A DNA stretch of 64,000 nt from a virus. Taxonomy: Duplodnaviria; Heunggongvirae; Uroviricota; Caudoviricetes. Made by a program: the position numbers and the translations under genes. The notes under the pieces were generated by a model, which did not search any database, had not been told where the DNA came from, and saw only the letters and a program-made list of their open reading frames with translations. The stretch lies in IMG/VR virus record IMGVR_UViG_2663762946_000001; one strand, given 5' to 3'. Positions 7,889 through 64,000 of the stretch are shown here, one piece after another (position 1 is the first letter of the stretch; each line of letters begins with the position of its first letter).

Positions 7889-8110
7889 ATGAAATTCAAA
7901 AATAATACGGTATTGGCTAAGCATTTAGGTAATGACAAGATTTATATGTGGCATGTTCCTGCCTCTATGGGGTTAAGACATAAAGTAAGAATTGGGAGTC
8001 TTATTAAGGTAGATACTCAATATGGCAATAAAATTGTAAAGGCTGTTGGGGTCGCACTTGTAAAAAATAGTAGCGGAAAATTCAGAGAGGTGGTCGAGTT
8101 TATTAAATGA
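7889..8110 (+). CDS. hypothetical small protein
   Basis: ORF from 7871 to 8110. The likely start is 7889, after AAAGGCGGAG. It overlaps the start of the next gene (ATGA). Confidence 0.35.
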   Translation: MKFKNNTVLAKHLGNDKIYMWHVPASMGLRHKVRIGSLIKVDTQYGNKIVKAVGVALVKNSSGKFREVVEFIK

Positions 8111-9333
8111 AACAATGGGTAAGCTTACATCAACACACCGATGAATCCAACGCAGGTGGTTATTTTGAAGTAGTGACTCAATATACTGATTATGTAAAAT
8201 ATGCCAAGGAAAACGAATTACCAGCAGTTTGTATAACTAATCATGGGAATGTAGCAAGATGGATGAAGCACAAAATGGCTATTAATGATTCTGGTATGAA
8301 ATATATTCATGCAATAGAAGCATATGTGACCATGAATTTGGAAGACAAAAATAGAGGGTATCATACAATTCTAATTGCAAAGAATTATGAGGGTGTGAAA
8401 GAGATTAATAGGTTATCCTCTGCATCATTTAATAGACAGGATGGACATTTTTATTATAAACCGAGAATTCTATTTGATGATCTAAAAAATACTTCAGACA
8501 ATATCTTTGTAACAACAGCATGTTTAGCAGGGGCACTTTGGCAAACATTTCCTCATCTGAATAGACAGACGAACAAAAGAGTTGAGGGCGATAAAAAAAT
8601 ATTTAAGGCTTGGATTGACTTCATTGAACAGAATAAAGAACGTGTATATCTGGAACTGCAGCCACATATCGATGAGGAACAAAAAGAGTACAACAAGCTA
8701 TTAGTAAAAATTGCTAAGAAAAAAGGTTTTAAATTAATTGCTTCAAATGATATTCATGCCCTAAACCAGCGACATAACGAAATTCGCTTAATGATAAAAA
8801 GAGGTAAAAAATCTGATTATGAGGGCGATGATAAATTTGAGATATGGTGCAAGAATTACGATGAAATGCTTGAAACTTTTGAAAGACAAGGCGTAGTAAG
8901 CAGGGGAATTGTTGAAAAAGCCCTGGATGCGACAATGGAAATTGTTAATCAAGTTGAAGACTTTGAATTAGACAGAACTCATAAATACCCACATTTATTT
9001 AAAGATGAAGAAAGTAAATTTAAAGAACTGATTGTGGAGGGTATGAAAAAAAGGGGTATCGCAAAACTCCCAAAAGAAGAAAGAAAAAAGTATATGAGTA
9101 GAGTCAATAAGGAGTTTAAAGTATATAAACAAAACGGGGCTATAAGTTATATGCTTGCTGATTGGCTTATGATTGAGGAAGCAAAGAAACAAGGTCGAAG
9201 AGTAGGGTATTCTCGTGGTAGTGTATCAGGTAGTTTGATTGCTTACTTACTCAATTCGACAGAAATTGATTCAGTTAAGGAAAATCTGAATTTTGAACGT
9301 TTTATGAACCCTGAGCGAATAAGTCTAGCGGAT
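8107..9333 (+). CDS. DNA polymerase III alpha (DnaE/C-family) exon 1, covering the PHP domain and part of the palm
   Basis: LHQHTDESNAGG...ITNHGNVAR...HAIEAY is the PHP domain. The C-terminal GYSRGSVSGSLIAYLLNSTEIDSVKENLNFERFMNPERISLAD aligns with the DnaE G(P)GRGSAAGSLVAYAL...FERFLNPERVSMPD motif. The reading frame stops right after this, and the protein continues at 10520. Confidence 0.7.
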
Positions 9334-10519
9334 TGATAGGTTTCTATCACAAATATCAGTAAGAAGGTGTTTGTGTGAGGATTGTAACTGACGAAGAAAA
9401 GATAAAGAGTGTTGAATTATATAAAAAGGGATTGTCAACAGTAAAAATAGGGAAGTTGTTTAACCGAGAGCCACGTACTATCAATAGAATGTTAAAAAGT
9501 ATGGGCGTTGAAATCAGGAGTAATAAGATTAATTCTCGTAAACATCATATCTATAACGAAAGGTACTTCAATAATATAGATACTCAAGAAAAAGCATACT
9601 TATTGGGTTTTATATATGCTGATGGTTTTATATCAATTAATGGTAATACTAAAAGGTTTGGTATATCAATCAATCGAGTTGATGAGTATTTATTAGAATT
9701 TGTTCGTAAAGAACTAAATACCGATTATCTCATTAACAGATATAAAGTCTCTTGTGGATATAGAGTCGGTGTAAATTATTCTCGTTTATTGATGACAAGT
9801 GATTTACTAGTTGATGATCTCATAAAACATGGAGTTGTCGAGCATAAAACCAATATATTATTGCCACCTAAAATATCAAACAATCTAAAAAGACATTTTA
9901 TCAGAGGATACATGGATGGCGATGGATCTATTAAAAAATGTAAAGGAAATTACAATTACGAATATGGAATTGATTTTGTAGGTACTACTGCTTTGCTGAC
10001 ATGGATTTATGATTATTTTTTAGAAAACAATTTAATTTCTAAAAGAAAAATCAATCTAGAAAAACGGAAAAAAGGCCAGTTAGTATCTCATATTCGTTGG
10101 GGCGGAAATCGACAAGTTCTCCGAATATTAAACCATTTATATAAGGATAGCGCTTTTTGTTTAAACAGGAAATTCGACAGATATTTACAATTGATGGAAC
10201 AAAGTAGTCCCATACAGGAGTGATCCTGTATTGCAAACCTCTTGAACCTATAAATATATAGGGTGTGGATATAAATATATCTGCTAACGGTTGAGTTCCC
10301 TTGCGGAAAAAACCGTGCTAACTCCTTGAAAAAGGAAATTGTGTAACGACTATCGAAAGGCAACGTTAAGTTGAACTGAGTAGAGTAGAGTTAATTGGTA
10401 ATTAATTCGAAGCGGGAGGCACTTATTTAATGATACTAATTAAATAAGTTGATGAGATAGTCTACTCCGACCACACAAAGATGTGGTGTTAAAGTATAAC
10501 GCAAGTTACGGTAGCTAGG
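9334..10519 (+). other. group I intron 1 in the DnaE gene, carrying a homing-endonuclease ORF
   Basis: Inferred from the polymerase alignment. Exon 1 ends ...SLAD (last nucleotide U at 9333). The protein resumes in frame at 10520 (IDHDWSGEDKIEVQKW, matching DnaE FDVDFC.DRRDEVIDYV) directly after a G at 10519. The sequence from 10224 to 10519 is a GC-richer, structured non-coding stretch. Confidence 0.55.
9375..10223 (+). CDS. LAGLIDADG homing endonuclease with two motifs, encoded inside the intron
   Basis: LLGFIYADGFI is motif 1 and FIRGYMDGDGSI is motif 2. There is an N-terminal HTH-like segment. The ORF lies entirely within the gap in the DnaE coding sequence. Confidence 0.75.
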   Translation: MRIVTDEEKIKSVELYKKGLSTVKIGKLFNREPRTINRMLKSMGVEIRSNKINSRKHHIYNERYFNNIDTQEKAYLLGFIYADGFISINGNTKRFGISINRVDEYLLEFVRKELNTDYLINRYKVSCGYRVGVNYSRLLMTSDLLVDDLIKHGVVEHKTNILLPPKISNNLKRHFIRGYMDGDGSIKKCKGNYNYEYGIDFVGTTALLTWIYDYFLENNLISKRKINLEKRKKGQLVSHIRWGGNRQVLRILNHLYKDSAFCLNRKFDRYLQLMEQSSPIQE

Positions 10520-11421
10520 ATAGATCATGATTGGTCAGGAGAAGATAAAATAGAAGTTCAAAAATGGTTGTTGACAAATCCAAATTTGCATTGCGCATCT
10601 ATTATGACAGCTAACACTTATGGACTGAAGGGCGCAATTAAAGTTATTGCAAAGGGAATGGATGGCTATAAAGACAAATCTCCGTTTGAGATTCAGGGAA
10701 TATGTAATCAAATAGATATTAAGGATAACTATCCAGACTCAATATATCAATCTCATAAGAAATTATTTGATACAGCCAAAGAGATAATTGGTGTTATTGA
10801 TTCGTTCGGTAGACATGCTTGTGGAATTGTTGTAAGTACAGAACCATTAGAAGGCGTAATGGGTACTCAAACTGTAAGTGGCTGGGATTATCCAGTAACA
10901 CAAGTTTATATGAAAGAAATAGACTATTGTAACTTCACAAAGTTTGATGTATTGGGTCTTGATAATCTTGGGTTAATAACAAAGTCTTGTGAGTTAGCTG
11001 GGTTACCTTTTTTAACACCAAACTCAACAGATATTGTCGATTTTCAAGATGAAAAAGTGTGGCAATCAATGGTCGAATCAAATATTGGTATTTTCCAATT
11101 TGAGGGAGAAAGAGCTGGTAGTATATTAAGACACTTATTCTCAGAAGAAACTATGAAAAAAATTAAAGAAAGAGTACCTGATATTAAATATATGGATTTA
11201 TTAAGTCTTGCTAATGCAGCACAAAGACCAAGTGGAGCAAGTTATCTTGAATCAGTAACGGAAGGTAAATTTACAGACAACGGGCACGATGCACTGAATA
11301 AATTTCTTGCCCCAACACTAGGAAATTTAGTTTATCAGGAACAACTTATTCAATTTTTGGTTGATTTTTGTGGATGGAGCTATGGGCAAGCTGATTTAAT
11401 TAGGCGTGGCATAGGTAAAAT
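10520..11421 (+). CDS. DNA polymerase III alpha (DnaE) exon 2
   Basis: ASIMTANTYGLKGAIKVIAKGM matches DnaE [28 protein letters not shown] matches HAAGVVIS. KFDVLGLDNLG matches DnaE DFLGLRTLT. It ends ...ADLIRRGIGK, which matches RRAMGK(KKPEEM). The exact 3' boundary is uncertain by a few nucleotides. Confidence 0.65.
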
Positions 11422-11787
11422 CTTTGCCTGTTAATGTGGAAACACATTATATGAAAGAGGACGAAATAGGGGAAGGTTGTAAAATATTAATCCCTAGATA
11501 ACACGATAAACTAAAGAATATTGTGTATTGTAACGCATAGTGGGTGAAACTGTAAAACAGAATATAATCCCACCAAGAGCGCCCTCCATGTAATCTTATA
11601 GAGATTACTATGCTAGTTTTGCCAACTAGATACCTAACGTTAAACGAGGATGAAAATGTATGCTAGTCTGAACTGGAATAGACCAGTTGATGAAAATGAG
11701 GAAAACCTCCAGAGCATGAGATAAAAAACTCATGGTTAATAACAATCGAAAAAGTCTCAAGCTATTATGGATAGCGAAGTGCCTAAG
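11422..11787 (+). other. group I intron 2 in the DnaE gene, with no ORF
   Basis: The frame terminates 4 codons after RRGIGK. The protein continues at ...KIKPSFIKTMIEKY (DnaE GKKKPEEM) near 11788. The roughly 365 nt between them are non-coding. The boundaries are approximate. Confidence 0.45.
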
Positions 11788-12924
11788 ATAAAACCTTCTT
11801 TTATTAAAACTATGATAGAAAAATATAATGATACCAAAGAACACGCAGAAGAAGTGGCAGATAGATTTATCCAGATATTCATGGATGCGGCTAATTATGG
11901 TTTTTCTGTAAATCATAGCCTTCCTTACTCCTACGTTGGATACATTGCGACATGGTTAAGATATTATTACTCTCTTGAATTTGCAACATCTGCCTTTGAA
12001 ATATGGAAAGATGATCAAAATAAAATTAATAAGGTTTCCAGTTATGCGCAAGAACATGGAATTACTCTAAAGAAAGCTATATTCGGAAAATCTAAAGGGC
12101 TGTATTTCATGGATAAAGATAATAATTCAATATACGAGGGTACTGCTTCTATTAAGGGAAATAATTCGCAGGTTGGGGATTTACTATATGATATTGCTAA
12201 AATTAAGAAGTATGAAAACTTTTGTGATCTTTTGTTAAAAATACATGACGATTCCTTTATAGCCGATAAAGAAGGAAATATTACAGCTATAGAAGACGTT
12301 TATAAGAAAGACGAAATTGAGCTTCAAAAAATAGATAAAGAGCTTAAATCAGGTGATATAGAGCTTCATCAAAATAAATATGATATTAATAAGACTAAAA
12401 TGGTAGGACTTATAAGATTGGGCTATTTTGATAAATTTGGGTCAATAAAAAAACTACAAACTATCTATGATTTCTTCAAAAAAGAGTATAAGCCTAATAA
12501 CAAAACTCTATCTGGTAAAGCTAAGAAATATCAATTGTGTGTAGAAACCGAAAAAAATACTCCAGAAGATGAGTACAGTTTTATACAATTACTAGAATTT
12601 GAATTATATTACACTGGGAAATGTAGTAAACATGATGATAGAATGCCAAGCAAATATGGCTTTATTGTTGATGTTAATAAAGGAAGGACTAGAACTAGAG
12701 CAACTGTGTATTCTATAAAGTATGGGAAAAATATGCCTATGCTTGTTGGAAATAGAGTTTATAACAATGTGCCTTTCAAAACTGGTGATCTAATTTCTAT
12801 TGAACAAATAGAGGAAAAACCAAAGTCTGTTTTCATGGACGGTCAATGGACTAAACACCCTACTGATGTAGATATTTGGGTCAAACAAGCAAAATTCATA
12901 AGAAAAGGTGAAATCAGCAAATGA
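11788..12924 (+). CDS. DNA polymerase III alpha (DnaE) exon 3
   Basis: ANYGFSVNHSLPYSYVGYIATWLRYYY matches the DnaE motif [25 protein letters not shown]. A C-terminal OB/tau-binding-like region follows. Confidence 0.65.
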   Translation: MKPSFIKTMIEKYNDTKEHAEEVADRFIQIFMDAANYGFSVNHSLPYSYVGYIATWLRYYYSLEFATSAFEIWKDDQNKINKVSSYAQEHGITLKKAIFGKSKGLYFMDKDNNSIYEGTASIKGNNSQVGDLLYDIAKIKKYENFCDLLLKIHDDSFIADKEGNITAIEDVYKKDEIELQKIDKELKSGDIELHQNKYDINKTKMVGLIRLGYFDKFGSIKKLQTIYDFFKKEYKPNNKTLSGKAKKYQLCVETEKNTPEDEYSFIQLLEFELYYTGKCSKHDDRMPSKYGFIVDVNKGRTRTRATVYSIKYGKNMPMLVGNRVYNNVPFKTGDLISIEQIEEKPKSVFMDGQWTKHPTDVDIWVKQAKFIRKGEISK

Positions 12925-17338: not shown

Positions 17339-18119
17339 TGAAGAAAGACTTAATTTGATTAGAAATTTAGTTTTTGATTTACCTAAAACTTATGATGATT
17401 TCTTATCACTTGATAATCTTCAACAGAGTCGTACATTCAGCGTCATTTCTGCAATAGAAGAATTGACAATAAGCAAATCAAATTTTGTTGTTAAATATGT
17501 CCTAACTGAAGATAGAAGGCCACATTTTCTTAGTATCGAAAAAGGAAATATATCTACCACATGGTCAAAACCCGATGAAGAGGGAACACTATATTGTCTG
17601 ATTGGAGCATCTGGTTCAGGTAAAACAACGTTGGGCTATATGACTTTTGGCAAAAAGAAAGAAGTAATTAGTACCACTACACGTAAACCAAGAAAGAATG
17701 AAATAGATGGACAGGACTATTTCTTTGTAAACCCAAGATGTTTTGCTGAAATGTATAAAAAAGGTAAGTATGCTGAAATTGATAGCTATAATAATAACTA
17801 TTATGGAATCGAATTATCAGAGATTCAGGACAAAACTAAAAATGGAGATGCTTATGCGGTAGTTACGTATGAAGGATATAAGCAAATCAAGAAACTGCAT
17901 CCAAAAACTAAGTCTATTTTTATTTACTCCAGCTTTAGAGATACCAGGAAACAAATGGTTGAACGTGGAGATCCTTATTGGCAAATAAGTAAAAGGCTTG
18001 ATCTATATGAGAAAGATATGGAAAACAAAAATAAATGTGACTATGTTGTAGAGAACCATCTTGGTAAACTAAGTGACAGTTTAGAGCAAATTCAAGAAAT
18101 CGTAAAGGAGAATAAATAA
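17256..18119 (+). CDS. guanylate kinase-like nucleoside monophosphate kinase
   Basis: The P-loop GASGSGKTT plus STTTRKPRKNEIDGQDYFFV match the TTRxPRxGE-DG-DY-F signature of guanylate kinase. The start is uncertain: the ORF overlaps its upstream neighbour by 82 nt. Confidence 0.6.
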   Translation: MILKNMQKKGWLYKKMKLETLTKIIKTDEERLNLIRNLVFDLPKTYDDFLSLDNLQQSRTFSVISAIEELTISKSNFVVKYVLTEDRRPHFLSIEKGNISTTWSKPDEEGTLYCLIGASGSGKTTLGYMTFGKKKEVISTTTRKPRKNEIDGQDYFFVNPRCFAEMYKKGKYAEIDSYNNNYYGIELSEIQDKTKNGDAYAVVTYEGYKQIKKLHPKTKSIFIYSSFRDTRKQMVERGDPYWQISKRLDLYEKDMENKNKCDYVVENHLGKLSDSLEQIQEIVKENK

Positions 18120-18589
18120 TGAAAAGAACAGTATACTTTGGTGCAGGGTGGTTCACTCCCAAACAAGAATTAGCATATGATAAGGCAATGCACGCTTTAA
18201 AAAATAATTTAAGTGTTGATTTAGTCCATTCATATGTTCCATTAGAACATCAATATAAGGGTATCAGAGTCGATTTAAATCCCGAATATTTACATGATCT
18301 TGAATGGTCAAACGGGACATTTAATGGAGATATTTTGGGTATTAAATCGACTGATGTAGCATTATTTATTTATGTCCCCACAGAAGAAGATATTGGTTGT
18401 GGAGTCGAATTAGGATATGCGAAAGCTATTAATAAGACAATCATAGTCGCAATTCCAGATGAGGAGTGGGGTGAACCAATTAACCTTATGTCATTTGGTG
18501 CAGCCGATTCATTTATTAAATTAAGCGAACTAAACAAATATGACTTTACAAAGCCAGAATATAAATTTTATGAAGGGGAAGTTTATTAA
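18119..18589 (+). CDS. nucleoside 2-deoxyribosyltransferase
   Basis: MKRTVYFGAGWFTP...IYVPTEEDIGCGVELGYA matches the NDT-family fold and motifs. This enzyme family is essentially restricted to lactobacilli. Confidence 0.55.
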   Translation: MKRTVYFGAGWFTPKQELAYDKAMHALKNNLSVDLVHSYVPLEHQYKGIRVDLNPEYLHDLEWSNGTFNGDILGIKSTDVALFIYVPTEEDIGCGVELGYAKAINKTIIVAIPDEEWGEPINLMSFGAADSFIKLSELNKYDFTKPEYKFYEGEVY

Positions 18590-32399: not shown

Positions 32400-32608
32400 A
32401 AACTATTCCCCCTAATATATTTTTCCCATCAACGACACTATATGTCATTAATGAATACCTGGTAACAGAATCGAACTGCTGTTTTGGATTATTAGACCAA
32501 TGTTTTGCCATTAAACTAACCAGGTACATGAGTTGTTGGAACTCACAAATGTTAGTACAAACTTACATTAATTACCAAAAAATACTCCATGAATTTTATT
32601 TTTGATAA

Positions 32609-32681
32609 CAGTCATGATCGGATTTGAACCGATAACCTACTGATTAGAAGTCAGTTGCTCTATCCAATTGAGCTACACAAC
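32609..32681 (-). tRNA. tRNA-Arg (anticodon UCU)
   Basis: Read on the minus strand, a 7-bp acceptor stem AGTTGTG/CATGACT (2 G-U pairs), D-arm GCTC-AATTGGAT-AGAGC, anticodon arm ACTGA-CTTCTAA-TCAGT, T-arm ATCGG-TTCAAAT-CCGAT. No CCA is encoded. Confidence 0.7.
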
Positions 32682-32949
32682 TATGTCAGCAGACAAACAA
32701 GAATAATTCTGCGACAAACACTATCATCATTGAATTTTGATATTACCATCTCACTCCGATAGTTATTTTTATTGTTAATACAGGGTAATCTGCTAACACT
32801 TGAAATAAAAGGAATAATGACTTTAAGCTTACAATTATTACTAAATTGGGTTTCTCCTATAAATAGGATCAGGGTCACTTGTTTTCATTAAATTACATAT
32901 CAACTACTATTGACTATCCTTTTTCGTTAATACAACCAAATTGAATTTA

Positions 32950-34946: not shown

Positions 34947-35717
34947 TTAGCTTGTTTTACGTGATTCGCCCCTCCATTTATACCCAAACGAGGTCTTTCG
35001 TCTATTTTTATTATTACTATCTGGAAAGGCTCTTTCTATATTGCTGGGATCAACATTCATATATCTAGCTGCTTCTGCAATTGATTCAAATTCCATTAGC
35101 ACATCTTCGTTTTTCTTATCTAACATATAAACCTTACGTTTTCTAGAATACTTACCACCAATTAATCTCATCTTATTTTTGAATTTATCTTTTTTTAATT
35201 CTGTTTGATAATCTTGTGCAAAAGAAGATATACCAAGAGTTCTACACCATTGCTTTACAGTGTTTCCTGTTACGTTATATTTTCTACCTAATTCTTCAAA
35301 ATTATAGTTTTCTAGAAGTAATAGTAATTTATGTTTATCAAGTTTATACTTATTTTCTATCCTTATCCGAGATTGTACATTAGAATATTTATCTTTATGC
35401 GAAACAAATTTATTATATCCATTTGGAATAAAACTATTATATTTTAACATATAGTAATTTTCTCTTTCATTAAGTTTATTTGTATCACATTCTTCTAATA
35501 TTATAAAATCAAAATTGGATACTCCAACATTTATCATATCTTGATATAAGTTCAAATGATGTCTTGGGTCAGAAGGCTTATTCAATGTTCTGATATGTTC
35601 ACTCCATCTGCTTTTAATATCTTTTGATTGTCCTATATAATACTTATTATTTAATAGGTTGACAATTGCATAAATACCTTGAGTCAAATTATCCCTTCTT
35701 TCACTGAAGTACGTCAT
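34947..35717 (-). CDS. free-standing GIY-YIG homing endonuclease
   Basis: The N-terminal GIYAIVN...KYYIGQSKDIKSRWSEH is the GIY-YIG signature, with a conserved Arg/Glu (ERENYYM). The C-terminus has HTH/NUMOD-like DNA-binding segments (KYNVTGNTVKQWCRTLGI, AEAARYMNVDPSNIERA). The ATG lies within a class-2 motif copy (35714-35727). Confidence 0.7.
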   Translation of the reverse strand: MTYFSERRDNLTQGIYAIVNLLNNKYYIGQSKDIKSRWSEHIRTLNKPSDPRHHLNLYQDMINVGVSNFDFIILEECDTNKLNERENYYMLKYNSFIPNGYNKFVSHKDKYSNVQSRIRIENKYKLDKHKLLLLLENYNFEELGRKYNVTGNTVKQWCRTLGISSFAQDYQTELKKDKFKNKMRLIGGKYSRKRKVYMLDKKNEDVLMEFESIAEAARYMNVDPSNIERAFPDSNNKNRRKTSFGYKWRGESRKTS

Positions 35718-35895
35718 TATGTTTACTTCTTAACAATTTTTAAAGAAGACTATTACTAATTAAAGTTATTACGATAACTTCTCGAATTCATATCATAAAG
35801 TGGCCTTGTCAATCTTTCCTGAATCACCCATAATTTATGTGTGTTTTCTTTGTTTTTGTCATCTCTATGTTCCTTCATGCTACCTCATGTATATT

Positions 35896-35938
35896 AGTAT
35901 ACATGCTTCTACTTTTTCTGTCAATATGTTTATTTAGA
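35896..35938 (-). promoter_or_regulatory. class-1 promoter AAATAAACATATTGACAG-N17-TATACT
   Basis: Read on the minus strand, TTGACA, a 17-nt spacer and TATACT, preceded by the conserved AAATAAACATA extension. It drives a small unannotated ORF (about 35883..35761, MKEHRDDKNKE...). Confidence 0.55.
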
Positions 35939-36148
35939 ATTATTCATAAGTCCAGTGGTTACACTACCATCTTTCAAATAAACAGCATCACTGTTATTAA
36001 TTTTGAAGTGATTCTGTATACCTGAAAGATAATCCCCAAAGCGACTATTATTAGTAATGATCTCTATTGCTTCTAGTTTTGCTTCTGAAGACAAGCCTTT
36101 AGATGCTAAAATACCATTAATAATTTCAATCTTTTCTTCTTTTTTCAT
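35930..36148 (-). CDS. hypothetical protein
   Basis: A 72-aa ORF after a GGAGG ribosome-binding site. Confidence 0.35.
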   Translation of the reverse strand: MKKEEKIEIINGILASKGLSSEAKLEAIEIITNNSRFGDYLSGIQNHFKINNSDAVYLKDGSVTTGLMNNSK

Positions 36149-36181
36149 AACTTCACCTCCTTCAATTTTTCTGAATCTCTC

Positions 36182-36547
36182 CTAAGTAATAATAGGTTTA
36201 TGTGTTGATATATAAACTCCTCTAATAACACTAACATTCCTGTAGAGATGATTAGATGCGTGTCCATTAGCATAGGTAGTAAGAGGGAAACCATGAGTCC
36301 TTCTAAATAAACTTTTACCGTTTTTTGTATTACATAAGGAATCCATTATTCTTGTACATAGTTGAGGGAAACGGATTTTTTTATAGTCCTCATCTGGATA
36401 TAGAATATCAATCAAGTCTATAAATGTGCTTACCATATCCATACCCAGGTCATTTATTTCATTGTCAATACAATAAATATATGTTTTTTTTCTGCAATGG
36501 TTAAATTCATAACTAAGTCTACTCCTTCCCAAATTCGACTTAATCAT
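36182..36547 (-). CDS. hypothetical protein
   Basis: A 121-aa ORF. Confidence 0.35.
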   Translation of the reverse strand: MIKSNLGRSRLSYEFNHCRKKTYIYCIDNEINDLGMDMVSTFIDLIDILYPDEDYKKIRFPQLCTRIMDSLCNTKNGKSLFRRTHGFPLTTYANGHASNHLYRNVSVIRGVYISTHKPIIT

Positions 36548-36776
36548 TTATTCGTTTGGCTGCAATGATCATTTTATTCATTAGCTCGAACTCTTCCCTA
36601 TCAATAAAAGCAATTTGATCATACATTTCTAAACCTGTATACGAAATCGTCATTAGTAAAGATAATGAATCTCTAAATTGAACTGAATTCCCATTTCTAT
36701 TAGCTATAAAAAAATAATCGTTACTTTTTTCACCTAATTCATTAAATTGTTCAATTAGAATATCTAAATCATCCAT
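36540..36776 (-). CDS. hypothetical protein
   Basis: A 78-aa ORF after a GGAGG ribosome-binding site. Confidence 0.35.
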   Translation of the reverse strand: MDDLDILIEQFNELGEKSNDYFFIANRNGNSVQFRDSLSLLMTISYTGLEMYDQIAFIDREEFELMNKMIIAAKRIND

Positions 36777-36836
36777 TATCTCGTTCCTCCATGAAACCTC
36801 ATTTGTAAAATCTTAGTTTTATCATTTTAATAATTA

Positions 36837-37784
36837 CTAAAATGAAATACCTTTTGACTTTTCATTTACCATTTTACGAAATTCCATCTTCTTCTTTTCT
36901 TTCTCTATCCTTAGTTTTTCTTCTTCTATAATTCTATCATTGTACATTTTGTTTGCTGCATTTACTGAAGATATTAGAGTGTCTCTATGATATTCAGCTA
37001 CCTCATCCATAGTTGTTCCCTTTAGCCAAATTTCATCAAAAGATACTGATGCTATACTAGGTCTGTGCATAGTAGTAAAACTGGAAGGATTTCTCCAACA
37101 ATATATGAAAAATTTATCCCAATCACGTGGGGGTTGAGTATTCAACTTAAACGGAATATCATATAGAGCCGAACCCCTGCTTCCATCCAATGTGGGTTGT
37201 GTAACTTTTTCTGTTACAATCCCTAGTATCTTCACATTAACAAGATTCAACTCCTGTTTACTTTTGACTTCTTTGATATCAACATTCATCAACTCGGCAA
37301 TGGTTTCTCTAGGATCTTTTGTTATAACTTTCTTTTCTATTTTTAAGTCTAATATATTTTTTAGTAAATCACCAAAATGTTTATCATTAAATTGATCATT
37401 TAGAATTACACCATTAATACCCATTAAACAATTAGGAGTTTTGTCGTTAGCATATTCATCTTTATATATTGGTATTACTTTATGAGTTTTGTCTTTAATA
37501 ACTTGCGCCAACATTCTGCCCTCATACCCGCTACCATTTTCTCTTTGATCAATGTGTGATTTGTATTTTTTTGTGCATATAGGTAAAAGTATATCGGAAT
37601 TAGAAACAAGTAATTCCATGAATTGATTAATATCATCTCCAAGATTAAGTTTGTCATGATCGTAATTTACATATACTTTATTCTCTTTTAATTTATTTAC
37701 CAATTCCTCTACCCATTCACGATGTTGATCGTCATCATATGAATAGAGAACTGCAACCGTTGGATTCTCGTTTGTTTTTTCCAC
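36837..37784 (-). CDS. TIR-like (flavodoxin-fold, DUF1863/ThsB-type) domain protein with a C-terminal domain of unknown function
   Basis: The N-terminal 110 aa, VAVLYSYDDDQHREWVEELVNKLKENKVYVNYDHDKLNLGDDINQFMELLVSNSDILLPICTKKYKS...SGYEGRM, follow the TIR-like pattern (betaA xFISYxxxD, helix, xG-D-xI loop, SxxxLLxxSxxY). About 200 further aa have no recognisable motif. Confidence 0.45.
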   Translation of the reverse strand: MEKTNENPTVAVLYSYDDDQHREWVEELVNKLKENKVYVNYDHDKLNLGDDINQFMELLVSNSDILLPICTKKYKSHIDQRENGSGYEGRMLAQVIKDKTHKVIPIYKDEYANDKTPNCLMGINGVILNDQFNDKHFGDLLKNILDLKIEKKVITKDPRETIAELMNVDIKEVKSKQELNLVNVKILGIVTEKVTQPTLDGSRGSALYDIPFKLNTQPPRDWDKFFIYCWRNPSSFTTMHRPSIASVSFDEIWLKGTTMDEVAEYHRDTLISSVNAANKMYNDRIIEEEKLRIEKEKKKMEFRKMVNEKSKGISF

Positions 37785-37803
37785 GATAACTATTACCTCT
37801 TTC

Positions 37804-38199
37804 TTATGCCTTTACTGCTTTTTCTACTGCTTTAGTTAATAATTCAGAAAAATTCAAACCAGCTTCATTACCTTTTTCATTTAAATAATTTGGAATCATA
37901 ACTGTTTTCTTAACTTTTTTCATATCATGTTCTTTCTTATATTTATCGACATCTACATCTATAAGATTAACAATAGCATCTTTAATCTTTGGTGTTTTAA
38001 ATATTGATCTTGGCAGTGGTTCTTTACTATCTAATTTATCCATTAAAACTAGTCCTATATAGTCACGAGCGTTAGTAATTGCATCTGGAATATCTGTACC
38101 TTGTGTGTAGCCGTCAAGCGCAGGAATCTCAACAAAATATGGAACCGTATCATTATCATTTTTTGTGATAATTACTGGGTATATTCTAATATTTCCCAT
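37804..38199 (-). CDS. hicB: HicB-family antitoxin
   Basis: IRIYPVIITKNDNDTVPYFVEIPALDGYTQGTDIPDAITNARDYIGLVL is the HicB/UPF0150 RNase-H-like N-domain. The C-terminal TVMIPNYLNEKGNEAGLNFSELLTKAVEKA is a ribbon-helix-helix-like DNA-binding tail. Confidence 0.65.
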   Translation of the reverse strand: MGNIRIYPVIITKNDNDTVPYFVEIPALDGYTQGTDIPDAITNARDYIGLVLMDKLDSKEPLPRSIFKTPKIKDAIVNLIDVDVDKYKKEHDMKKVKKTVMIPNYLNEKGNEAGLNFSELLTKAVEKAVKA

Positions 38200-38231
38200 T
38201 ATAAAAACTCCTTTCTATATATTTAAATCTA

Positions 38232-38405
38232 TTACTTAAGGTTATTACGTTTAATAATAATTTTCGCTAAACGTTCATTAATATCTGGGTGTCTCGGAAT
38301 CGTCTCTTTATCCTTACCATTTGTCCAGATATCATGATTCCCACCATTACGATATAGATACCAATTATTCTTCTGCAATTTTTTTATTAACTCTCGTCTT
38401 TTCAC
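38232..38405 (-). CDS. hicA: HicA-family mRNA interferase toxin (57 aa, GTG start)
   Basis: Not in the ORF track because it is shorter than 60 aa. Minus-strand translation gives (M)KRRELIKKLQKNNWYLYRNGGNHDIWTNGKDKETIPRHPDINERLAKIIIKRNNLK. This matches HicA/YcfA (ELIKLLEKNGW...GSHxxxxH). AAAGGAGG sits 7 nt upstream of the GTG. It is immediately upstream of hicB. Confidence 0.65.
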   Translation of the reverse strand: MKRRELIKKLQKNNWYLYRNGGNHDIWTNGKDKETIPRHPDINERLAKIIIKRNNLK

Positions 38406-38483
38406 ATTTTGTAACCTCCTTTGACTATCATTAGTATACGTATTATATACGTATATGTCAAATCAAAAGTTTAGTATAAAATA

Positions 38484-39137
38484 CTACTTCGAAATCAACT
38501 TTTTCTGATAGATATCGCTACTTAGGTGAAATCTTCCAATATCATCTTCTGTAAAAGTTCTACTATATCTATTTGGGAACTTAGCTTCCAATCTCATAAT
38601 TTCATCTTCTTCTGCAAGTCCAAGTATTGCTGGGTTTAAAACATCTTTATAATAATAAATGTCTTCAGTATGAGGTACTAATACACGATATTCTAATTGA
38701 ATATACTCCTTCCCTTTATAATTATCTAATAGGATTACCGACTTGTTCGTAGGGGTTAAAGTATAACCAATTAATTTAATGCGTTCTTCAATAATTAGAT
38801 TCAATAATGCATATAGGAAATGTGCATTGAATCTGTCTATTTCATCAATAAATATATTACTACCATCTGCAACTTCATGTTGAAATATTAAATCAGTTTT
38901 TGAGTTCAGAATCTTTATTCCATCTTTGCCTATTCTATTGTTTTGATACTTTCCTAACGCTTTACGAAACTCATTATTAAAAGAATTCAAAGCAATATTA
39001 GAATGTGTTAAAACAATAATCCCACCATGTGTTTTGCTATAATTAATTACTTTTCTAATTAAAGTTGATGTTTTACCACTTCCTCTATCTCCGATAATCA
39101 TTTCTGTGTCCTGTAAAATATCGCCTAAAGTTACCAT
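38484..39137 (-). CDS. P-loop NTPase, function unknown
   Basis: Walker A IIGDRGSGKTST and a Walker B-like IFIDEID. Confidence 0.4.
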   Translation of the reverse strand: MVTLGDILQDTEMIIGDRGSGKTSTLIRKVINYSKTHGGIIVLTHSNIALNSFNNEFRKALGKYQNNRIGKDGIKILNSKTDLIFQHEVADGSNIFIDEIDRFNAHFLYALLNLIIEERIKLIGYTLTPTNKSVILLDNYKGKEYIQLEYRVLVPHTEDIYYYKDVLNPAILGLAEEDEIMRLEAKFPNRYSRTFTEDDIGRFHLSSDIYQKKLISK

Positions 39138-39296
39138 ATTGTTCCTCCGTTATTTCATTATGTGTATTTGTATATACAAAAATAGTCATGGCTGTTCAGA
39201 CCATGACAAGCAATGTTCAAGTGGTTTACTGATTTATCAGTAATACTTGATAACTAACTATATCATGTCCAAAATCTAATTACAATATGTTTATTT

Positions 39297-39662
39297 CTAC
39301 CAGTCTTCTTCCCATTCTCCAAATTCATCTTGGTCATTATCAAAGCTAATTGCAACCTGCAATCCAATAATACTGTCTCTTAGATCATTACCACCAGAAT
39401 ATAATACCCTGTTTAGCGGTAATTTAGTAATTGAAACTCCATAATTAGAAATCTCCATTCGTTCTTCATAATACCCATTCTCATCTATACTATCTATTCT
39501 AAGATTCTCTCTTCTACACATTAATCTGGCCTCAAATAGATTACTAAAGATACCTAGTATGTCAGTACATTCATCGAATGTCCCATTATTATATTTTTCA
39601 ATAACAATAAAAACATAATTTGATTGAGAAAGAGCTGCTTTCCTCTTTATCGTCTTCTTCAT
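39297..39662 (-). CDS. hypothetical protein
   Basis: A 121-aa ORF. Its 3' end overlaps a motif copy (39283-39296). Confidence 0.35.
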   Translation of the reverse strand: MKKTIKRKAALSQSNYVFIVIEKYNNGTFDECTDILGIFSNLFEARLMCRRENLRIDSIDENGYYEERMEISNYGVSITKLPLNRVLYSGGNDLRDSIIGLQVAISFDNDQDEFGEWEEDW

Positions 39663-40675: not shown

Positions 40676-41455
40676 TTATTTTGATTCTGTTGCTACTTCA
40701 TCTTGTTTGCGAAACCAACCTTTTTTACTGAAAAAAGCATACATGTCATTTAGGAAAAAGACGCTATAACTAAAGATAAGTGCAAAGTTTCCATCTCCTT
40801 GTAGCATTGTTTGTGTCCATAGAGCAATTGTAAACACTGAACTAATAGTCCATACAAAATATTGCTCACGTTTCCGATTTAATTCCAATAATGAACCAGT
40901 AATAGCCATGGCCAAGTTCATGCTATCCAAGAAAACTCGTGGATCACTTGTGAGACTGAATAAATAATAGATTACGCCCCATGCTACTACGAAGAACACA
41001 ATATATTTCACCCATTCAAAAGCATTTTTGAATTTTTCAGCTTGAATATTGTCATTCCACTTTGGGTCAAGAATACAGAATAGATCTAAGAAAATTAAGT
41101 ATCCGATTTGTTCCCAAGCTGTAGCAAAGTTTCCTGCCATGAATCCTACGCTTGCAATACAAATTGCAGATGTAGCACCTAACCAACCTTGAATACCAGA
41201 CTTATTTGAGATACCAACAACGCAAGCAACTGACAGGTTCCCACCAATAAACGACAATACTGACAAAAGTGGGCTGCCACTAAATGATTGCAGTAACGAG
41301 ATTACTTGCAATACAAAGTTGAATAAAATTAAGCCATAACTAAACTTACCCCAACCTTTACATTGATTAATCAACCAACTAAAATATCCTTTTCTAAAAA
41401 CATTTTTTGAATAAACTGATAAATTTGATAAAACATCTGCATAACGACTAAACAT
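40676..41455 (-). CDS. PnuC-like nicotinamide riboside/NMN transporter (tentative)
   Basis: A 259-aa polytopic membrane protein with 7-8 helices. Trp/Asn-rich helix ends (WLINQC, WEQIGY, WNDNIQ, WTISSVF) resemble PnuC. Homologues are common in large Firmicutes phages. Confidence 0.4.
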   Translation of the reverse strand: MFSRYADVLSNLSVYSKNVFRKGYFSWLINQCKGWGKFSYGLILFNFVLQVISLLQSFSGSPLLSVLSFIGGNLSVACVVGISNKSGIQGWLGATSAICIASVGFMAGNFATAWEQIGYLIFLDLFCILDPKWNDNIQAEKFKNAFEWVKYIVFFVVAWGVIYYLFSLTSDPRVFLDSMNLAMAITGSLLELNRKREQYFVWTISSVFTIALWTQTMLQGDGNFALIFSYSVFFLNDMYAFFSKKGWFRKQDEVATESK

Positions 41456-45154: not shown

Positions 45155-45520
45155 CTAGCTCTTTTGTGCATTTTCCCTTACCTCCGAATGCCTTTTCTCG
45201 AAGTATTTTCTTGTTCCTTCTAATCCCAATTCACTAAATTCTGTACTAGCAAGCTCTGCAAATTTTTCACCTAAATACCAGTACCTCACAACTCTGTTTA
45301 GTGCAACCGAATGCGAGTAACCGCTCTGTTGCTCAACACCCTTTGCGTTCCAAATATCATCACGCCAAACATCTTCTAGCTTTTTACTCTCGGACAAATG
45401 TTTTTCCATCAAGTTCATTAAATTTTCAGCATAATCTAGAATTAACGTTCCATAAGAGTCTGAATTGACCGATCGTTCTGTAGTCCAACCAAACTTAGCT
45501 TTGTCATTGTAAAACTTCAT
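45155..45520 (-). CDS. hypothetical protein
   Basis: A 121-aa ORF after a GGAGG ribosome-binding site. Confidence 0.35.
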   Translation of the reverse strand: MKFYNDKAKFGWTTERSVNSDSYGTLILDYAENLMNLMEKHLSESKKLEDVWRDDIWNAKGVEQQSGYSHSVALNRVVRYWYLGEKFAELASTEFSELGLEGTRKYFEKRHSEVRENAQKS

Positions 45521-62805: not shown

Positions 62806-63969
62806 TTATTTTACATTTTTATACTTTTCATAATTTTGCACTAAACTATATTTTCTGTAATACTCGTCCTCAGATTTTTTGTTGTTTAATGAACTTTCCT
62901 TCATATCCCCAAATTTAACCATGCTTTCATACATTGCTTCATCTAGAGATATTGACTTATTTAAGTACATTAAGTCATCTACAAATTCGATTCTACCTGC
63001 AGTCCTGATAGTACTATAAGTAAGTTGTCGATCTGCAATAAATTGAGAATAATTTTCTCTAATCTTCCTTAATCTTCTCTGGATTCCATATTCGGACATT
63101 TTTCCATTTTTAGAGCTTCTTCCATATGTTCTAAGTAGATAACCAGTCCGACTAACTGTTTGAATAGTTTTAGAAGTAGAACTATAAAAGGTCTGTTCCA
63201 ATGCTTCATGCACAATAGACAATGCTTCTGGGTCTAACTTAATATCACGTTCAAATTTACCTCTAATATGAATCGTATTGCCAGTTATATCGTCTTCTCT
63301 TATATTTCTAATCTCATCATCTTCTTCTATTCTTGATAACTTAATACCATTCATCATCAAAGAAATTATGACCGCATCTTGAGGGTTATCAATTGCTCTA
63401 ACTATTCTTTTTAATTCATCAGCTTCAATAAAACTTTTAGGTTTTTCATTTTCTGGAATGCTGTCAAAAAGTTTATTTTTATTCCAACTCTTCTCCAACT
63501 TGTAACCTAACTCATCAAATTTTTTAATAGAGTAGTCAACAAATAAATTAATTACAAGAATATAGTTATTGTAAGTCATATAATTTATGAAATTATTTCT
63601 ATAATAGCTAATGATGTCTAACATGTCTTCAAAATTGAATTGCAAAATAGATTTATTTTTTTCAATTTCAAATTGTTCTACTTGGTTCAAAATTTTAATT
63701 ATTTTTTTTACATTACTATAATTTTCTAATTCTCGGCTTCTCTGTGCTATAAAAGCTGCCTTTAGATTATGATCAAATTTGTAATCAATACTAAAGTTAT
63801 CATTATGTTTACTATCATCTTCTAATCTTAACTTAACTAACTTTTCTATATCCTTATTCAATACAGATAATCCAAAAATCATTTCTACAGTCTTGCTGTA
63901 TGAGAGTTCATCTGTATCAATAGTAGTAGCATTAAAAAATTTATCAATAAACCTTTGACTGATTTTCAT
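62806..63969 (-). CDS. hypothetical protein (387 aa)
   Basis: A long intact ORF. A weak resemblance to the tyrosine-recombinase layout (LTYSTIRTAGR) is not convincing. Confidence 0.35.
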   Translation of the reverse strand: MKISQRFIDKFFNATTIDTDELSYSKTVEMIFGLSVLNKDIEKLVKLRLEDDSKHNDNFSIDYKFDHNLKAAFIAQRSRELENYSNVKKIIKILNQVEQFEIEKNKSILQFNFEDMLDIISYYRNNFINYMTYNNYILVINLFVDYSIKKFDELGYKLEKSWNKNKLFDSIPENEKPKSFIEADELKRIVRAIDNPQDAVIISLMMNGIKLSRIEEDDEIRNIREDDITGNTIHIRGKFERDIKLDPEALSIVHEALEQTFYSSTSKTIQTVSRTGYLLRTYGRSSKNGKMSEYGIQRRLRKIRENYSQFIADRQLTYSTIRTAGRIEFVDDLMYLNKSISLDEAMYESMVKFGDMKESSLNNKKSEDEYYRKYSLVQNYEKYKNVK

Positions 63970-64000
63970 TTGTAATAATCGTTCATTATAGTTGTTTTTT

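What the first reader, a model, noticed from the sequence alone, without database searches (positions are those of the whole stretch)
36837..38405. A TIR-like domain protein followed directly by a complete hicA-hicB toxin-antitoxin pair inside a lytic-phage accessory block
Three consecutive minus-strand genes are involved. The first is a 315-aa protein whose N-terminal 110 aa fit the TIR-like/ThsB (DUF1863) flavodoxin-fold pattern, with a 200-aa C-terminal domain of unknown function. The second is a 57-aa HicA mRNA-interferase toxin, which the ORF track missed because it is shorter than 60 aa and starts at a GTG. The third is a HicB antitoxin with an RNase-H-like N-domain and a ribbon-helix-helix-like tail. 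TIR domains and HicAB modules are both hallmarks of bacterial anti-phage immunity (Thoeris and abortive infection). Finding them adjacent on a virulent phage suggests a counter-defence module, such as a TIR-signal sponge or mimic. Other possibilities are superinfection exclusion against rival phages, or a TA-stabilised selfish cassette. In the canonical hicA-hicB order, HicB would autoregulate the operon. Whether the TIR gene belongs to that operon or to a downstream one is open.
Basis: partly seen in the sequence, partly recalled or inferred. Interest (0 to 1): 0.8.

Follow-up and report, generated by a model that had tools for sequence, protein, structure and literature searches.

The report
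Phage-borne bSEFIR NADase fused to hicAB
A large phage-like replicon of Liquorilactobacillus hordei carries a full-length copy of the known bacterial anti-phage NAD+-degrading protein bSEFIR, placed directly behind an ordinary HicA-HicB toxin-antitoxin pair, which looks like a phage-carried weapon against rival phages rather than a new kind of system.

Summary
The three minus-strand genes exist exactly as described: hicA (57 aa, GTG), hicB (131 aa) and a 315-aa TIR-clan protein.

The 315-aa protein is a full-length member of the known single-gene defence family bSEFIR.
- It matches the PADLOC bSEFIR model at E=5e-41 over residues 3-304.
- It keeps all 41 residues that are invariant in the family.
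- Its "unknown" C-terminal domain is the family's most conserved part.

The hicAB pair is homologous to hicAB morons of Levilactobacillus prophages (74% and 59% identity) and shares their promoter/operator. The prophage cassette ends in a terminator. Here the SEFIR gene starts 19 nt after hicB, so a three-gene operon is likely.

The linkage is a one-off: none of 85 loci encoding relatives has HicA or HicB nearby.

The window is a 145-kb separate replicon of an L. hordei isolate with tyrosine recombinases, so "virulent" is unproven.

Best reading: a phage-carried defence or superinfection-exclusion cassette. The counter-defence (sponge or mimic) idea is not supported.

Verdict: a new member of a known kind, of modest interest.

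The parts
38433..38461 (-). Sigma-A/sigma-70-type promoter of the cassette (TTGACA-17-TATACT, 11 of 12 matches), 27 nt upstream of the hicA start codon
   Evidence: This is the best promoter-like site in 36000-39400. The homologous position in the Levilactobacillus brevis prophage cassette is TTGACA-17-TATAAT, 12 of 12. The region aligns between the two cassettes.
38435..38455 (.). Candidate HicB (ribbon-helix-helix) operator: two copies of the palindromic TATACGTAT, 11 nt apart, inside the promoter spacer and -10 region
   Evidence: The repeat and palindrome were found. The core ACGTrTATAATACGTATA is conserved in the L. brevis prophage hicAB promoter. Binding by HicB is inferred, not tested.
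38232..38405 (-). hicA, 57-aa HicA mRNA-interferase-type toxin (GTG start)
   Evidence: ORF. Pfam HicA_toxin E=2.9e-10. PHROG 353 'toxin' E=6e-17. 74% identical to the HicA of an L. brevis prophage, which starts with ATG at the same position. His24 is present in a GGNH motif.
37804..38199 (-). hicB, 131-aa HicB antitoxin (HicB-like N-domain plus C-terminal ribbon-helix-helix)
   Evidence: Pfam HicB_lk_antitox E=9.6e-8. PHROG 497 E=2.7e-22. Full-length alignment to the solved HicB structures 5yrz (E=4e-12) and 9svk (E=3e-9), including the C-terminal KKT(v/l)(m/t)IP...NFS(e/q)(l/i)L segment. The closest homologue is 59% identical, from L. brevis.
36837..37784 (-). Full-length bSEFIR-family gene (315 aa, GTG start 19 nt after the hicB stop codon)
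   Evidence: PADLOC bSEFIR PDLC03957 E=5.2e-41, residues 3-304. 97 homologous protein clusters, with the same two-domain layout in the 34 members aligned. Identical to an NCBI protein of L. hordei. AlphaFold2 model with mean pLDDT 83.5.
37365..37763 (-). SEFIR (STIR-clan) domain, residues about 8-140, the presumed NADase domain
36840..37238 (-). Conserved bSEFIR C-terminal domain (residues about 183-275, a small alpha/beta unit) followed by a roughly 50-residue helix

Best explanation
The locus is a moron-type cassette on a large phage-like replicon of Liquorilactobacillus hordei. It is built from two known modules that here form one transcription unit.

**Module 1: hicAB.** This is an ordinary type II toxin-antitoxin pair. 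It has its own host-type promoter and a palindromic operator that HicB's ribbon-helix-helix tail would bind.

**Module 2: bSEFIR.** This is a complete gene of the single-protein anti-phage system bSEFIR. In the studied Bacillus member, the N-terminal SEFIR domain cleaves NAD+ to ADP-ribose and nicotinamide when a phage infects, which aborts the infection.

**How the two are joined.** The SEFIR gene sits where the ancestral hicAB cassette had its terminator. It is therefore expressed from the HicB-controlled promoter by the host RNA polymerase, that is, in cells that carry the replicon or early in infection.

**Likely function.**
- The SEFIR protein protects cells carrying the replicon against competing phages by NAD+-depletion abortive infection (superinfection exclusion).
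- HicAB stabilises the cassette or the replicon by addiction, sets the expression level, and may add a second abortive activity.

**Shown here:** gene structures, family membership by sequence and fold, retention of all family-invariant residues, promoter/operator homology, absence of a terminator, and non-conservation of the linkage.

**Inferred:** NADase activity, the trigger, co-transcription, HicB binding, and the benefit to the phage.
For: - The protein is a full-length bSEFIR match and keeps all 41 family-invariant residues.
- By fold, the N-domain is SEFIR first.
- bSEFIR is an experimentally shown single-gene defence that depletes NAD+ through its N-terminal SEFIR domain (bioRxiv 10.1101/2022.05.11.491447; 10.1101/2024.02.11.579819).
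- The closest relatives (46-51% identity) lie in defence-island or mobile-element contexts. They sit next to retron type VI RT, AbiK, Fic and integrases.
- More distant relatives lie next to restriction-modification genes, Vsr and ThsB.
- Two IMG/VR viral contigs carry full-length relatives as morons. One sits beside a Thoeris system and an integrase, the other between portal and terminase genes.
- hicAB occurs as an autonomous promoter-hicA-hicB-terminator moron in L. brevis prophages, with a homologous promoter/operator.
- In the window the hicB stop codon is 19 nt from the SEFIR start. No terminator-like site lies between hicA and the end of the SEFIR gene.
- The G+C content of the three genes (0.30-0.32) equals that of the replicon (0.31), so this is not a fresh insertion.
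- The replicon is carried as a separate molecule in an isolate and has tyrosine recombinases.
Against: - No experiment was done on this protein. The catalytic residue of SEFIR NADases was not mapped here.
- An NAD+-depleting effector is also dangerous to the phage that carries it, and no self-immunity mechanism is demonstrated.
- The lifestyle of the replicon is unresolved. It has its own replication machinery, tRNAs and homing endonucleases, as in virulent phages, and no repressor or partition genes were seen in the roughly 73 kb inspected.
- Full-length bSEFIR is very rare on phages. There were 0 of 50,697 GenBank phage records and 3 IMG/VR contigs (a pattern-limited search). There is therefore little precedent for a selective benefit.
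- Co-transcription rests on sequence features only.
Confidence: 0.55

Rival explanations
1. The three genes form one integrated system in which the toxin-antitoxin pair gates the NADase. When a competing phage shuts off host gene expression, the labile HicB decays. This derepresses the promoter, giving a burst of SEFIR, and frees HicA, so two abortive effectors fire together. HicAB would then be the sensor or switch and SEFIR the effector.
For: - The layout is operon-like: one strong promoter carrying palindromes, gaps of 32 nt and 19 nt, and no terminator.
- The terminator present in the homologous hicAB cassette is missing here.
- Toxin-antitoxin modules acting as phage sensors are established in general (my own knowledge of ToxIN, DarTG and CapRel, not tested here).
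Against: - The linkage is not conserved. None of 85 loci of bSEFIR relatives has HicA or HicB within 1.5 kb.
- The nearest hicAB cassettes have no SEFIR gene.
- bSEFIR works as a single gene in Bacillus.
- The protein keeps its own conserved C-domain, so it needs no external sensor.
Confidence: 0.15
2. This is the first reader's lead idea: a counter-defence device. The SEFIR/TIR-like protein would act as a decoy, a dominant-negative partner or a signal sponge. It would poison host TIR or SEFIR immunity, such as Thoeris or host bSEFIR.
For: - SEFIR and TIR domains act through homotypic assemblies, so a phage copy could in principle co-assemble with a host copy. This is inference, based on the SEFIR-SEFIR interface mutant D40A that abolishes defence.
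- The same replicon invests in this conflict. It has a Tad4-family ThsB inhibitor at 45155..45520 and a PnuC-type NMN transporter.
Against: - Every family-invariant residue in both domains is retained, and the full two-domain architecture is kept. Decoys usually lose catalytic residues.
- There is no similarity to known sponges. Pfam shows only TIR_2 and SEFIR at significant level.
- The protein is about 50% identical to copies in bacterial defence islands.
- It is expressed from a host-type, TA-regulated promoter rather than as an obvious early anti-defence gene.
Confidence: 0.08
3. This is a selfish passenger with no benefit to the phage. A hicAB addiction module picked up an adjacent defence gene by illegitimate recombination and persists because loss of the cassette kills the cell. 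SEFIR would be silent or irrelevant.
For: - The juxtaposition is unique.
- hicAB travels as an independent moron with variable neighbours: a small recombinase gene in L. brevis prophages and housekeeping genes in Lentilactobacillus.
- bSEFIR is rare on phages.
Against: - The SEFIR ORF is intact, with all conserved residues, and its composition matches the replicon. This argues for maintained function over some time.
- The start codon is tightly coupled to hicB and has its own ribosome-binding site.
Confidence: 0.15
4. This is host takeover. The phage would use the NADase on purpose during its own lytic growth to shut down host metabolism, and would cover its own needs through the PnuC transporter.
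For: A PnuC-type NMN transporter gene lies 2.9 kb upstream on the same strand. Phage pnuC genes have been linked to NAD+ salvage.
Against: - No NadR, NMNAT or NAMPT partner was seen near pnuC in the inspected Pfam annotations.
- NAD+ depletion is known to block phage replication.
- bSEFIR family members are infection-triggered and not constitutive.
Confidence: 0.04

Closest known systems
bSEFIR single-gene anti-phage defence (Bacillus sp. NIO-1130 SEFIR; Millman et al. 2022; PADLOC PDLC03957)
   Same: - The two-domain architecture is the same: an N-terminal SEFIR domain and a conserved C-terminal domain ending in a long helix.
- It matches the family HMM over the full length (E=5e-41).
- It keeps all 41 invariant residues of 34 aligned family members.
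- The SEFIR fold ranks first in both structure searches.
   Different: - It is encoded on a 145-kb phage-like replicon, not in a chromosomal defence island.
- It is probably co-transcribed with hicAB from a TA-type promoter.
- It is the short form (315 aa), without the N-terminal extensions of the 400-530-aa members.
- Position 16 is Tyr where at least 90% of the family have Trp.
- Its activity is untested.
HicAB type II toxin-antitoxin modules carried as prophage morons (PHROG 353/497; L. brevis prophage cassette L094-L096; S. pneumoniae HicBA, PDB 5yrz)
   Same: - The gene order hicA then hicB is the same.
- The toxin is 57 aa with the conserved His.
- HicB has a C-terminal ribbon-helix-helix.
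- The promoter and palindromic operator core are conserved.
- Identity to the L. brevis prophage pair is 74% (HicA) and 59% (HicB).
   Different: The terminator-like hairpins that follow hicB in the prophage cassette are absent. A 948-nt defence gene follows after 19 nt instead.
Phage- and prophage-encoded defence systems used against competing phages (defence hotspots of temperate phages and satellites)
   Same: A known bacterial defence gene sits in an accessory block of a phage-like element, under a host-type promoter. Two IMG/VR contigs carry full-length bSEFIR relatives as morons in the same way.
   Different: - The carrier is a large replicon with its own DnaE-type polymerase, primase, helicases, ligase and tRNAs, not a typical 40-kb temperate phage.
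- Its lifestyle is unresolved.
   Different: - There is no Pfam ThsB_TIR hit.
- No ThsA partner was seen in the annotated genes of the roughly 73 kb of the replicon inspected.
- bSEFIR depletes NAD+ itself rather than making a signal for a second protein.

Membership tests
bSEFIR (single-gene SEFIR defence) | Significant, near full-length match to the family profile | tested here: met
   PADLOC PDLC03957 bSEFIR E=5.2e-41, 139.8 bits, residues 3-304 on profile positions 34-324 of 412. In the aligned family members, the longer forms differ only by N-terminal extensions.
bSEFIR (single-gene SEFIR defence) | N-terminal domain is SEFIR, with the SEFIR hit stronger than the TIR hit (the criterion used by Millman et al.) | tested here: inconclusive
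   [not shown]
bSEFIR (single-gene SEFIR defence) | Conserved C-terminal domain (GSALY..PF / FTTMHRP.IA / GTT.EEV..YHRDTL motifs) | tested here: met
   All motifs are present. C-domain identity to the 33 relatives is 48-59%.
bSEFIR (single-gene SEFIR defence) | Asp needed for SEFIR-SEFIR interaction (D40 of the Bacillus sp. NIO-1130 protein; D40A abolishes defence) | tested here: inconclusive
   An invariant Asp (D42, in the motif (L/Y)D(Q/H)) aligns with D37 of the B. cereus SEFIR structure. The NIO-1130 sequence itself was not in hand, so the equivalence to D40 is inferred.
bSEFIR (single-gene SEFIR defence) | Infection-triggered NAD+ depletion and protection against phage | not testable with these tools
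   This needs plaque assays and NAD+ measurement. The property is known only for the Bacillus member.
HicAB type II toxin-antitoxin | HicA toxin domain above the curated threshold, with the conserved catalytic His | tested here: met
   PF07927 scores 40.5 bits against a cut-off of 27. His24 in GGNH aligns with NGSNH of E. coli HicA 6hpb, although that alignment is weak (E=0.63). The protein is 74% identical to a prophage HicA.
HicAB type II toxin-antitoxin | Adjacent HicB antitoxin with a HicB-like N-domain and a DNA-binding C-terminal domain | tested here: met
   PF15919 scores 32.7 bits against a cut-off of 27. HicB aligns over its full length to the solved structures 5yrz and 9svk, including the ribbon-helix-helix segment.
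HicAB type II toxin-antitoxin | Bicistronic hicA-hicB unit with its own promoter overlapping a palindromic operator | tested here: met
   The promoter matches 11 of 12 consensus positions and contains two TATACGTAT palindromes. This region is conserved in the L. brevis cassette. The unit is extended here by a third gene.
HicAB type II toxin-antitoxin | Toxicity of HicA and its neutralisation by HicB | not testable with these tools
   This needs expression experiments.
Thoeris (ThsA + ThsB) | ThsB-type TIR (PF08937/DUF1863) next to a ThsA effector (SIR2 or Macro/SLOG) | tested here: not met
   [not shown]
Phage anti-Thoeris / anti-TIR sponges and inhibitors (Tad families) | Sequence or fold similarity to a known Tad family; small protein | tested here: not met
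   The 315-aa protein hits only TIR_2 and SEFIR at significant level. A separate gene at 45155..45520 is the replicon's Tad4-family member.

The most novel reading that the evidence does not exclude
The phage has wired a bacterial NADase immune effector into a toxin-antitoxin switch for phage-versus-phage warfare. HicB decay on a rival's shut-off of host expression would both free HicA and derepress SEFIR. The replicon's own Tad4-family TIR-active-site blocker (45155..45520) and PnuC transporter would shield its own lytic growth from its own NADase. This would be a three-layer system, with a TA gate, a SEFIR effector and self-immunity by an anti-TIR protein, that has not been described.
Probability: 0.1. 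Interest if true: 0.7.

Novelty: new member of a known kind. Interest (0 to 1): 0.33.

Why it matters
If the phage copy is active, it would be a clear case of a large phage carrying the NAD+-depleting bSEFIR immune protein, probably for use against competitors. The same genome also carries tools against NAD+- and TIR-based host immunity (a Tad4-family gene and PnuC). That makes it a compact natural system for asking how a virus avoids being hit by its own abortive-infection effector. The apparent replacement of a terminator by a defence gene behind hicAB also shows how toxin-antitoxin morons can act as landing pads and expression platforms for defence cargo. None of this changes current concepts. 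The parts and the general theme of phage-encoded defence are already known.

Tried and rejected

2. **Close phage or plasmid relatives for synteny comparison: none found.**
   - Megablast of 36000-39500 found nothing in 50,697 phage records or 72,556 plasmids.
   - IMG/VR scans with the upstream 217-aa ATPase and with PnuC found no relatives.
   - The best helicase hits in GenBank phages are only about 32% identical.
   - "Do the three genes travel together in related phages" therefore could not be asked directly. It was answered through relatives of each gene instead.

3. **Conserved partnership of bSEFIR with HicAB: rejected**.

4. **Insertion scars: none convincing.** No convincing flanking direct repeats were found. 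There is one 15-nt perfect inverted repeat inside the neighbouring ORFs, of uncertain meaning.

5. **Structured RNAs in 35500-39500:** no Rfam match at E<=0.1.

6. **ThsB/DUF1863 and nucleoside deoxyribosyltransferase assignments for the N-domain:** both rank below SEFIR and TIR.

7. **Literature:** searches for 'bSEFIR' and for 'CP049301' returned nothing.
Full report
**What is in the sequence**

- hicA, 38232..38405, 57 aa, GTG start.
- hicB, 37804..38199, 131 aa, ATG start.
- A 315-aa ORF, 36837..37784, GTG start.

The sequence shows Shine-Dalgarno-like motifs before each gene. The intergenic gaps are 32 nt (hicA to hicB) and 19 nt (hicB to the 315-aa ORF).

The domain assignments are well above chance.
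- HicA_toxin E=2.9e-10, HicB_lk_antitox E=9.6e-8, and TIR_2 E=1.8e-10 plus SEFIR E=9e-6 in Pfam.
- PHROG families 'toxin' (E=6e-17) and 'HicB-like' (E=2.7e-22), both filed as morons.
- HicB aligns end to end with the solved HicB structures 5yrz and 9svk, including the C-terminal ribbon-helix-helix segment.
- HicA keeps His24 in a GGNH motif that aligns with NGSNH of E. coli HicA, although that alignment is weak (E=0.63).

**What the 315-aa protein is**

The decisive result is a near full-length match to the PADLOC model of bSEFIR (E=5.2e-41, residues 3-304).

bSEFIR is a single-gene anti-phage system found by Millman et al. A Bacillus sp. NIO-1130 member protects B. subtilis from phi29, and a D40A change in the SEFIR-SEFIR interface abolishes defence. 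It is described as depleting NAD+ through its N-terminal SEFIR domain, and it is overcome by the phage NAD+ reconstitution pathway NARP1.

The large protein database holds 97 homologous clusters. An alignment of 34 of them shows two conserved blocks joined by a variable linker. The window protein keeps all 41 invariant residues.

A model built on that alignment (pLDDT 83.5) was compared with solved structures.
- Foldseek ranks the prokaryotic SEFIR crystal structure 5y8e/5y8f first (E=1e-6).

The specific family, however, is SEFIR, not ThsB/DUF1863.

One caveat applies. Plain Pfam scoring puts TIR_2 above SEFIR, so Millman's 'SEFIR stronger than TIR' criterion is met on the PDB side only.

**Where the window comes from**

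The protein is 100% identical to an NCBI protein of Liquorilactobacillus hordei. The window maps to CP049301.1, a separate 145,196-bp record of assembly GCA_019443985.1. That record has no nucleotide match in either the GenBank phage collection or PLSDB.

The content is phage-type.
- Endolysin, split DnaE-type polymerase, primase, DnaB-like and RecD2-like helicases, ligase and exonucleases.
- Nucleotide kinases, methyltransferases, two tRNAs and homing endonucleases.
- SPbeta-type YorH and YopX genes.

"Virulent" is not shown, for three reasons.
- The element is carried as its own molecule in an isolate genome.
- Two tyrosine recombinase genes lie at, and just beyond, the right edge of the window.
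- The nearest characterised phage by helicase similarity is Thomasclavelia phage TR-TP1. It has the same replication-module layout plus an integrase, an anti-repressor and a MazF-like toxin.

I regard the lifestyle as unresolved, leaning temperate or episomal.

**Do the three genes belong together?**

*Within this replicon, probably yes as a transcription unit.*
- The best promoter-like site in 36000-39400 is TTGACA-17-TATACT (11 of 12), ending 27 nt before the hicA start codon. No terminator-like site lies between it and the end of the SEFIR gene.
- The promoter contains two copies of the palindrome TATACGTAT, 11 nt apart. This is the kind of site a ribbon-helix-helix antitoxin binds.

*Comparison with the nearest hicAB cassette.*
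- The closest HicB homologue (59%) and its HicA partner (74%) form a two-gene moron between the terminase genes of Levilactobacillus brevis prophages.
- That cassette has a 12-of-12 promoter with the same ACGTrTATAATACGTATA core.
- Directly after its hicB stop codon it has terminator-like hairpins.
- In the window those are absent, and the SEFIR start codon follows after 19 nt.

This looks like an operon fusion that puts a defence gene under a TA promoter.

*Across evolution, the linkage is a one-off.*
- The three closest SEFIR relatives (46-51% identity, Enterococcus and metagenomes) have no hicAB. They sit beside integrases, Fic, HTH regulators and reverse transcriptases, which PADLOC identifies as retron type VI RT and AbiK.
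- I fetched 80 further loci from species-representative genomes; 176 stretches in that collection encode a relative.
- I then scanned all small ORFs within 1.5 kb of the SEFIR gene. phmmer found no HicA or HicB.
- Pfam scans of 87 upstream and 122 downstream ORFs hit HicA and HicB only in the window controls. The neighbours include restriction enzymes, Vsr, methylases, ThsB, Fic, integrases and other toxin-antitoxin genes.

**Mechanism**

The best-supported reading is two known modules joined in one cassette.
- The SEFIR protein is an intact, presumably active, infection-triggered NADase. It protects cells that carry the replicon against other phages by abortive infection.
- HicAB acts as an addiction and regulatory module and possibly as a second abortive effector.

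The host-type promoter fits expression in the carried state or early in infection.

Full-length bSEFIR on phages is rare. There are none in 50,697 GenBank phage records; only a Klebsiella prophage shares the N-domain. Three IMG/VR contigs carry a relative, and the two full-length ones are morons: one sits next to Thoeris genes and an integrase, the other between portal and terminase genes.

The counter-defence idea is disfavoured because nothing in the protein is degenerate, and its closest kin are defence-island genes. A TA-gated three-part system cannot be excluded, but it lacks any conservation support.

**Novelty and score**

The parts and the theme are known, and NCBI already names all three proteins generically. 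What is new is modest:
- A bSEFIR member on a large phage-like replicon.
- Its fusion to a hicAB promoter unit.
- Its co-residence with a Tad4-family ThsB inhibitor (function) and a PnuC transporter.

I rate it a new member of a known kind, with interest about 0.33.

Noticed in passing
window 45155..45520 (-): A 121-aa protein matches Pfam PF25186 'Type I Thoeris inhibitor Tad4' (E=1.6e-10, 41.7 bits against a cut-off of 25). Tad3-6 are reported to bind ThsB and insert a loop into the TIR active site. The replicon thus carries an anti-TIR protein 7.4 kb upstream of its own SEFIR NADase. Whether it also acts on that SEFIR is untested.
   Followed up: partly
window 40676..41455 (-): This is a PnuC-type nicotinamide mononucleotide/riboside transporter (PF04973, E=8e-22), 2.3 kb upstream of hicA on the same strand. 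No NadR, NMNAT or NAMPT partner was seen in the annotated neighbourhood. Phage pnuC genes have been proposed to be part of NAD+ salvage against NAD+-depleting defences.
   Followed up: partly
window 62806..64000 (-, runs over the window edge) and the next gene beyond the edge (L013 7595-8650): There are two tandem tyrosine recombinase genes: a 413-aa MrpR_C_cat protein and a 351-aa Phage_integrase protein. Together with carriage as a separate 145-kb replicon in an isolate assembly, they question the 'virulent phage' label.
   Followed up: partly
L002 4968-5969, L005 7907-8791, L007 7052-8857: In all three contexts of the closest cellular relatives inspected, the SEFIR gene lies next to a defence reverse transcriptase. 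These are retron type VI RT (E=1e-67 and 2e-79) or AbiK (E=1e-200). In L002 the RT ends 31 nt before the SEFIR start. A possible functional tie between this SEFIR subclade and retrons was not pursued.
   Followed up: no
L008 3527-5906 (IMG/VR UViG 3300029305_011244): A 42%-identical bSEFIR relative sits directly after a ThsB-TIR and ThsA-Macro pair and an AAA_21 ATPase gene, about 1 kb from an integrase gene. This is a small defence cluster in a prophage-like contig.
   Followed up: partly
[not shown]
   Followed up: partly
window 36750-36764 and 38687-38701: A perfect 15-nt inverted repeat (TTCAATTAGAATATC / GATATTCTAATTGAA) brackets the three-gene cassette. Both arms lie inside the neighbouring ORFs. 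My rough estimate is about 0.03 such pairs expected by chance in 2.5 kb of this composition. Its meaning is unknown.
   Followed up: no
window 8107..12924 (+): The DnaE-type (Pol III alpha-like) polymerase is encoded in several separate ORFs (8107-9336, 10568-11434, 11767-12924) with intervening ORFs. The same arrangement is seen in Thomasclavelia phage TR-TP1, where an HNH endonuclease gene splits it.
   Followed up: no
window 18119..18589 (+): A separate 156-aa nucleoside 2-deoxyribosyltransferase gene (PF05014) is present. It is present on the replicon, but as a different gene.
   Followed up: no
window 32455..32526 and 32608..32683 (-): Two tRNA genes are present: tRNA-Ile with the unusual anticodon AAT, and tRNA-Arg (TCT).
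   Followed up: no
L096 7315-7557: One of the L. brevis-type prophages that carry the homologous hicAB moron also has a Tad2-like gene (PF11195) about 2 kb away.
   Followed up: no
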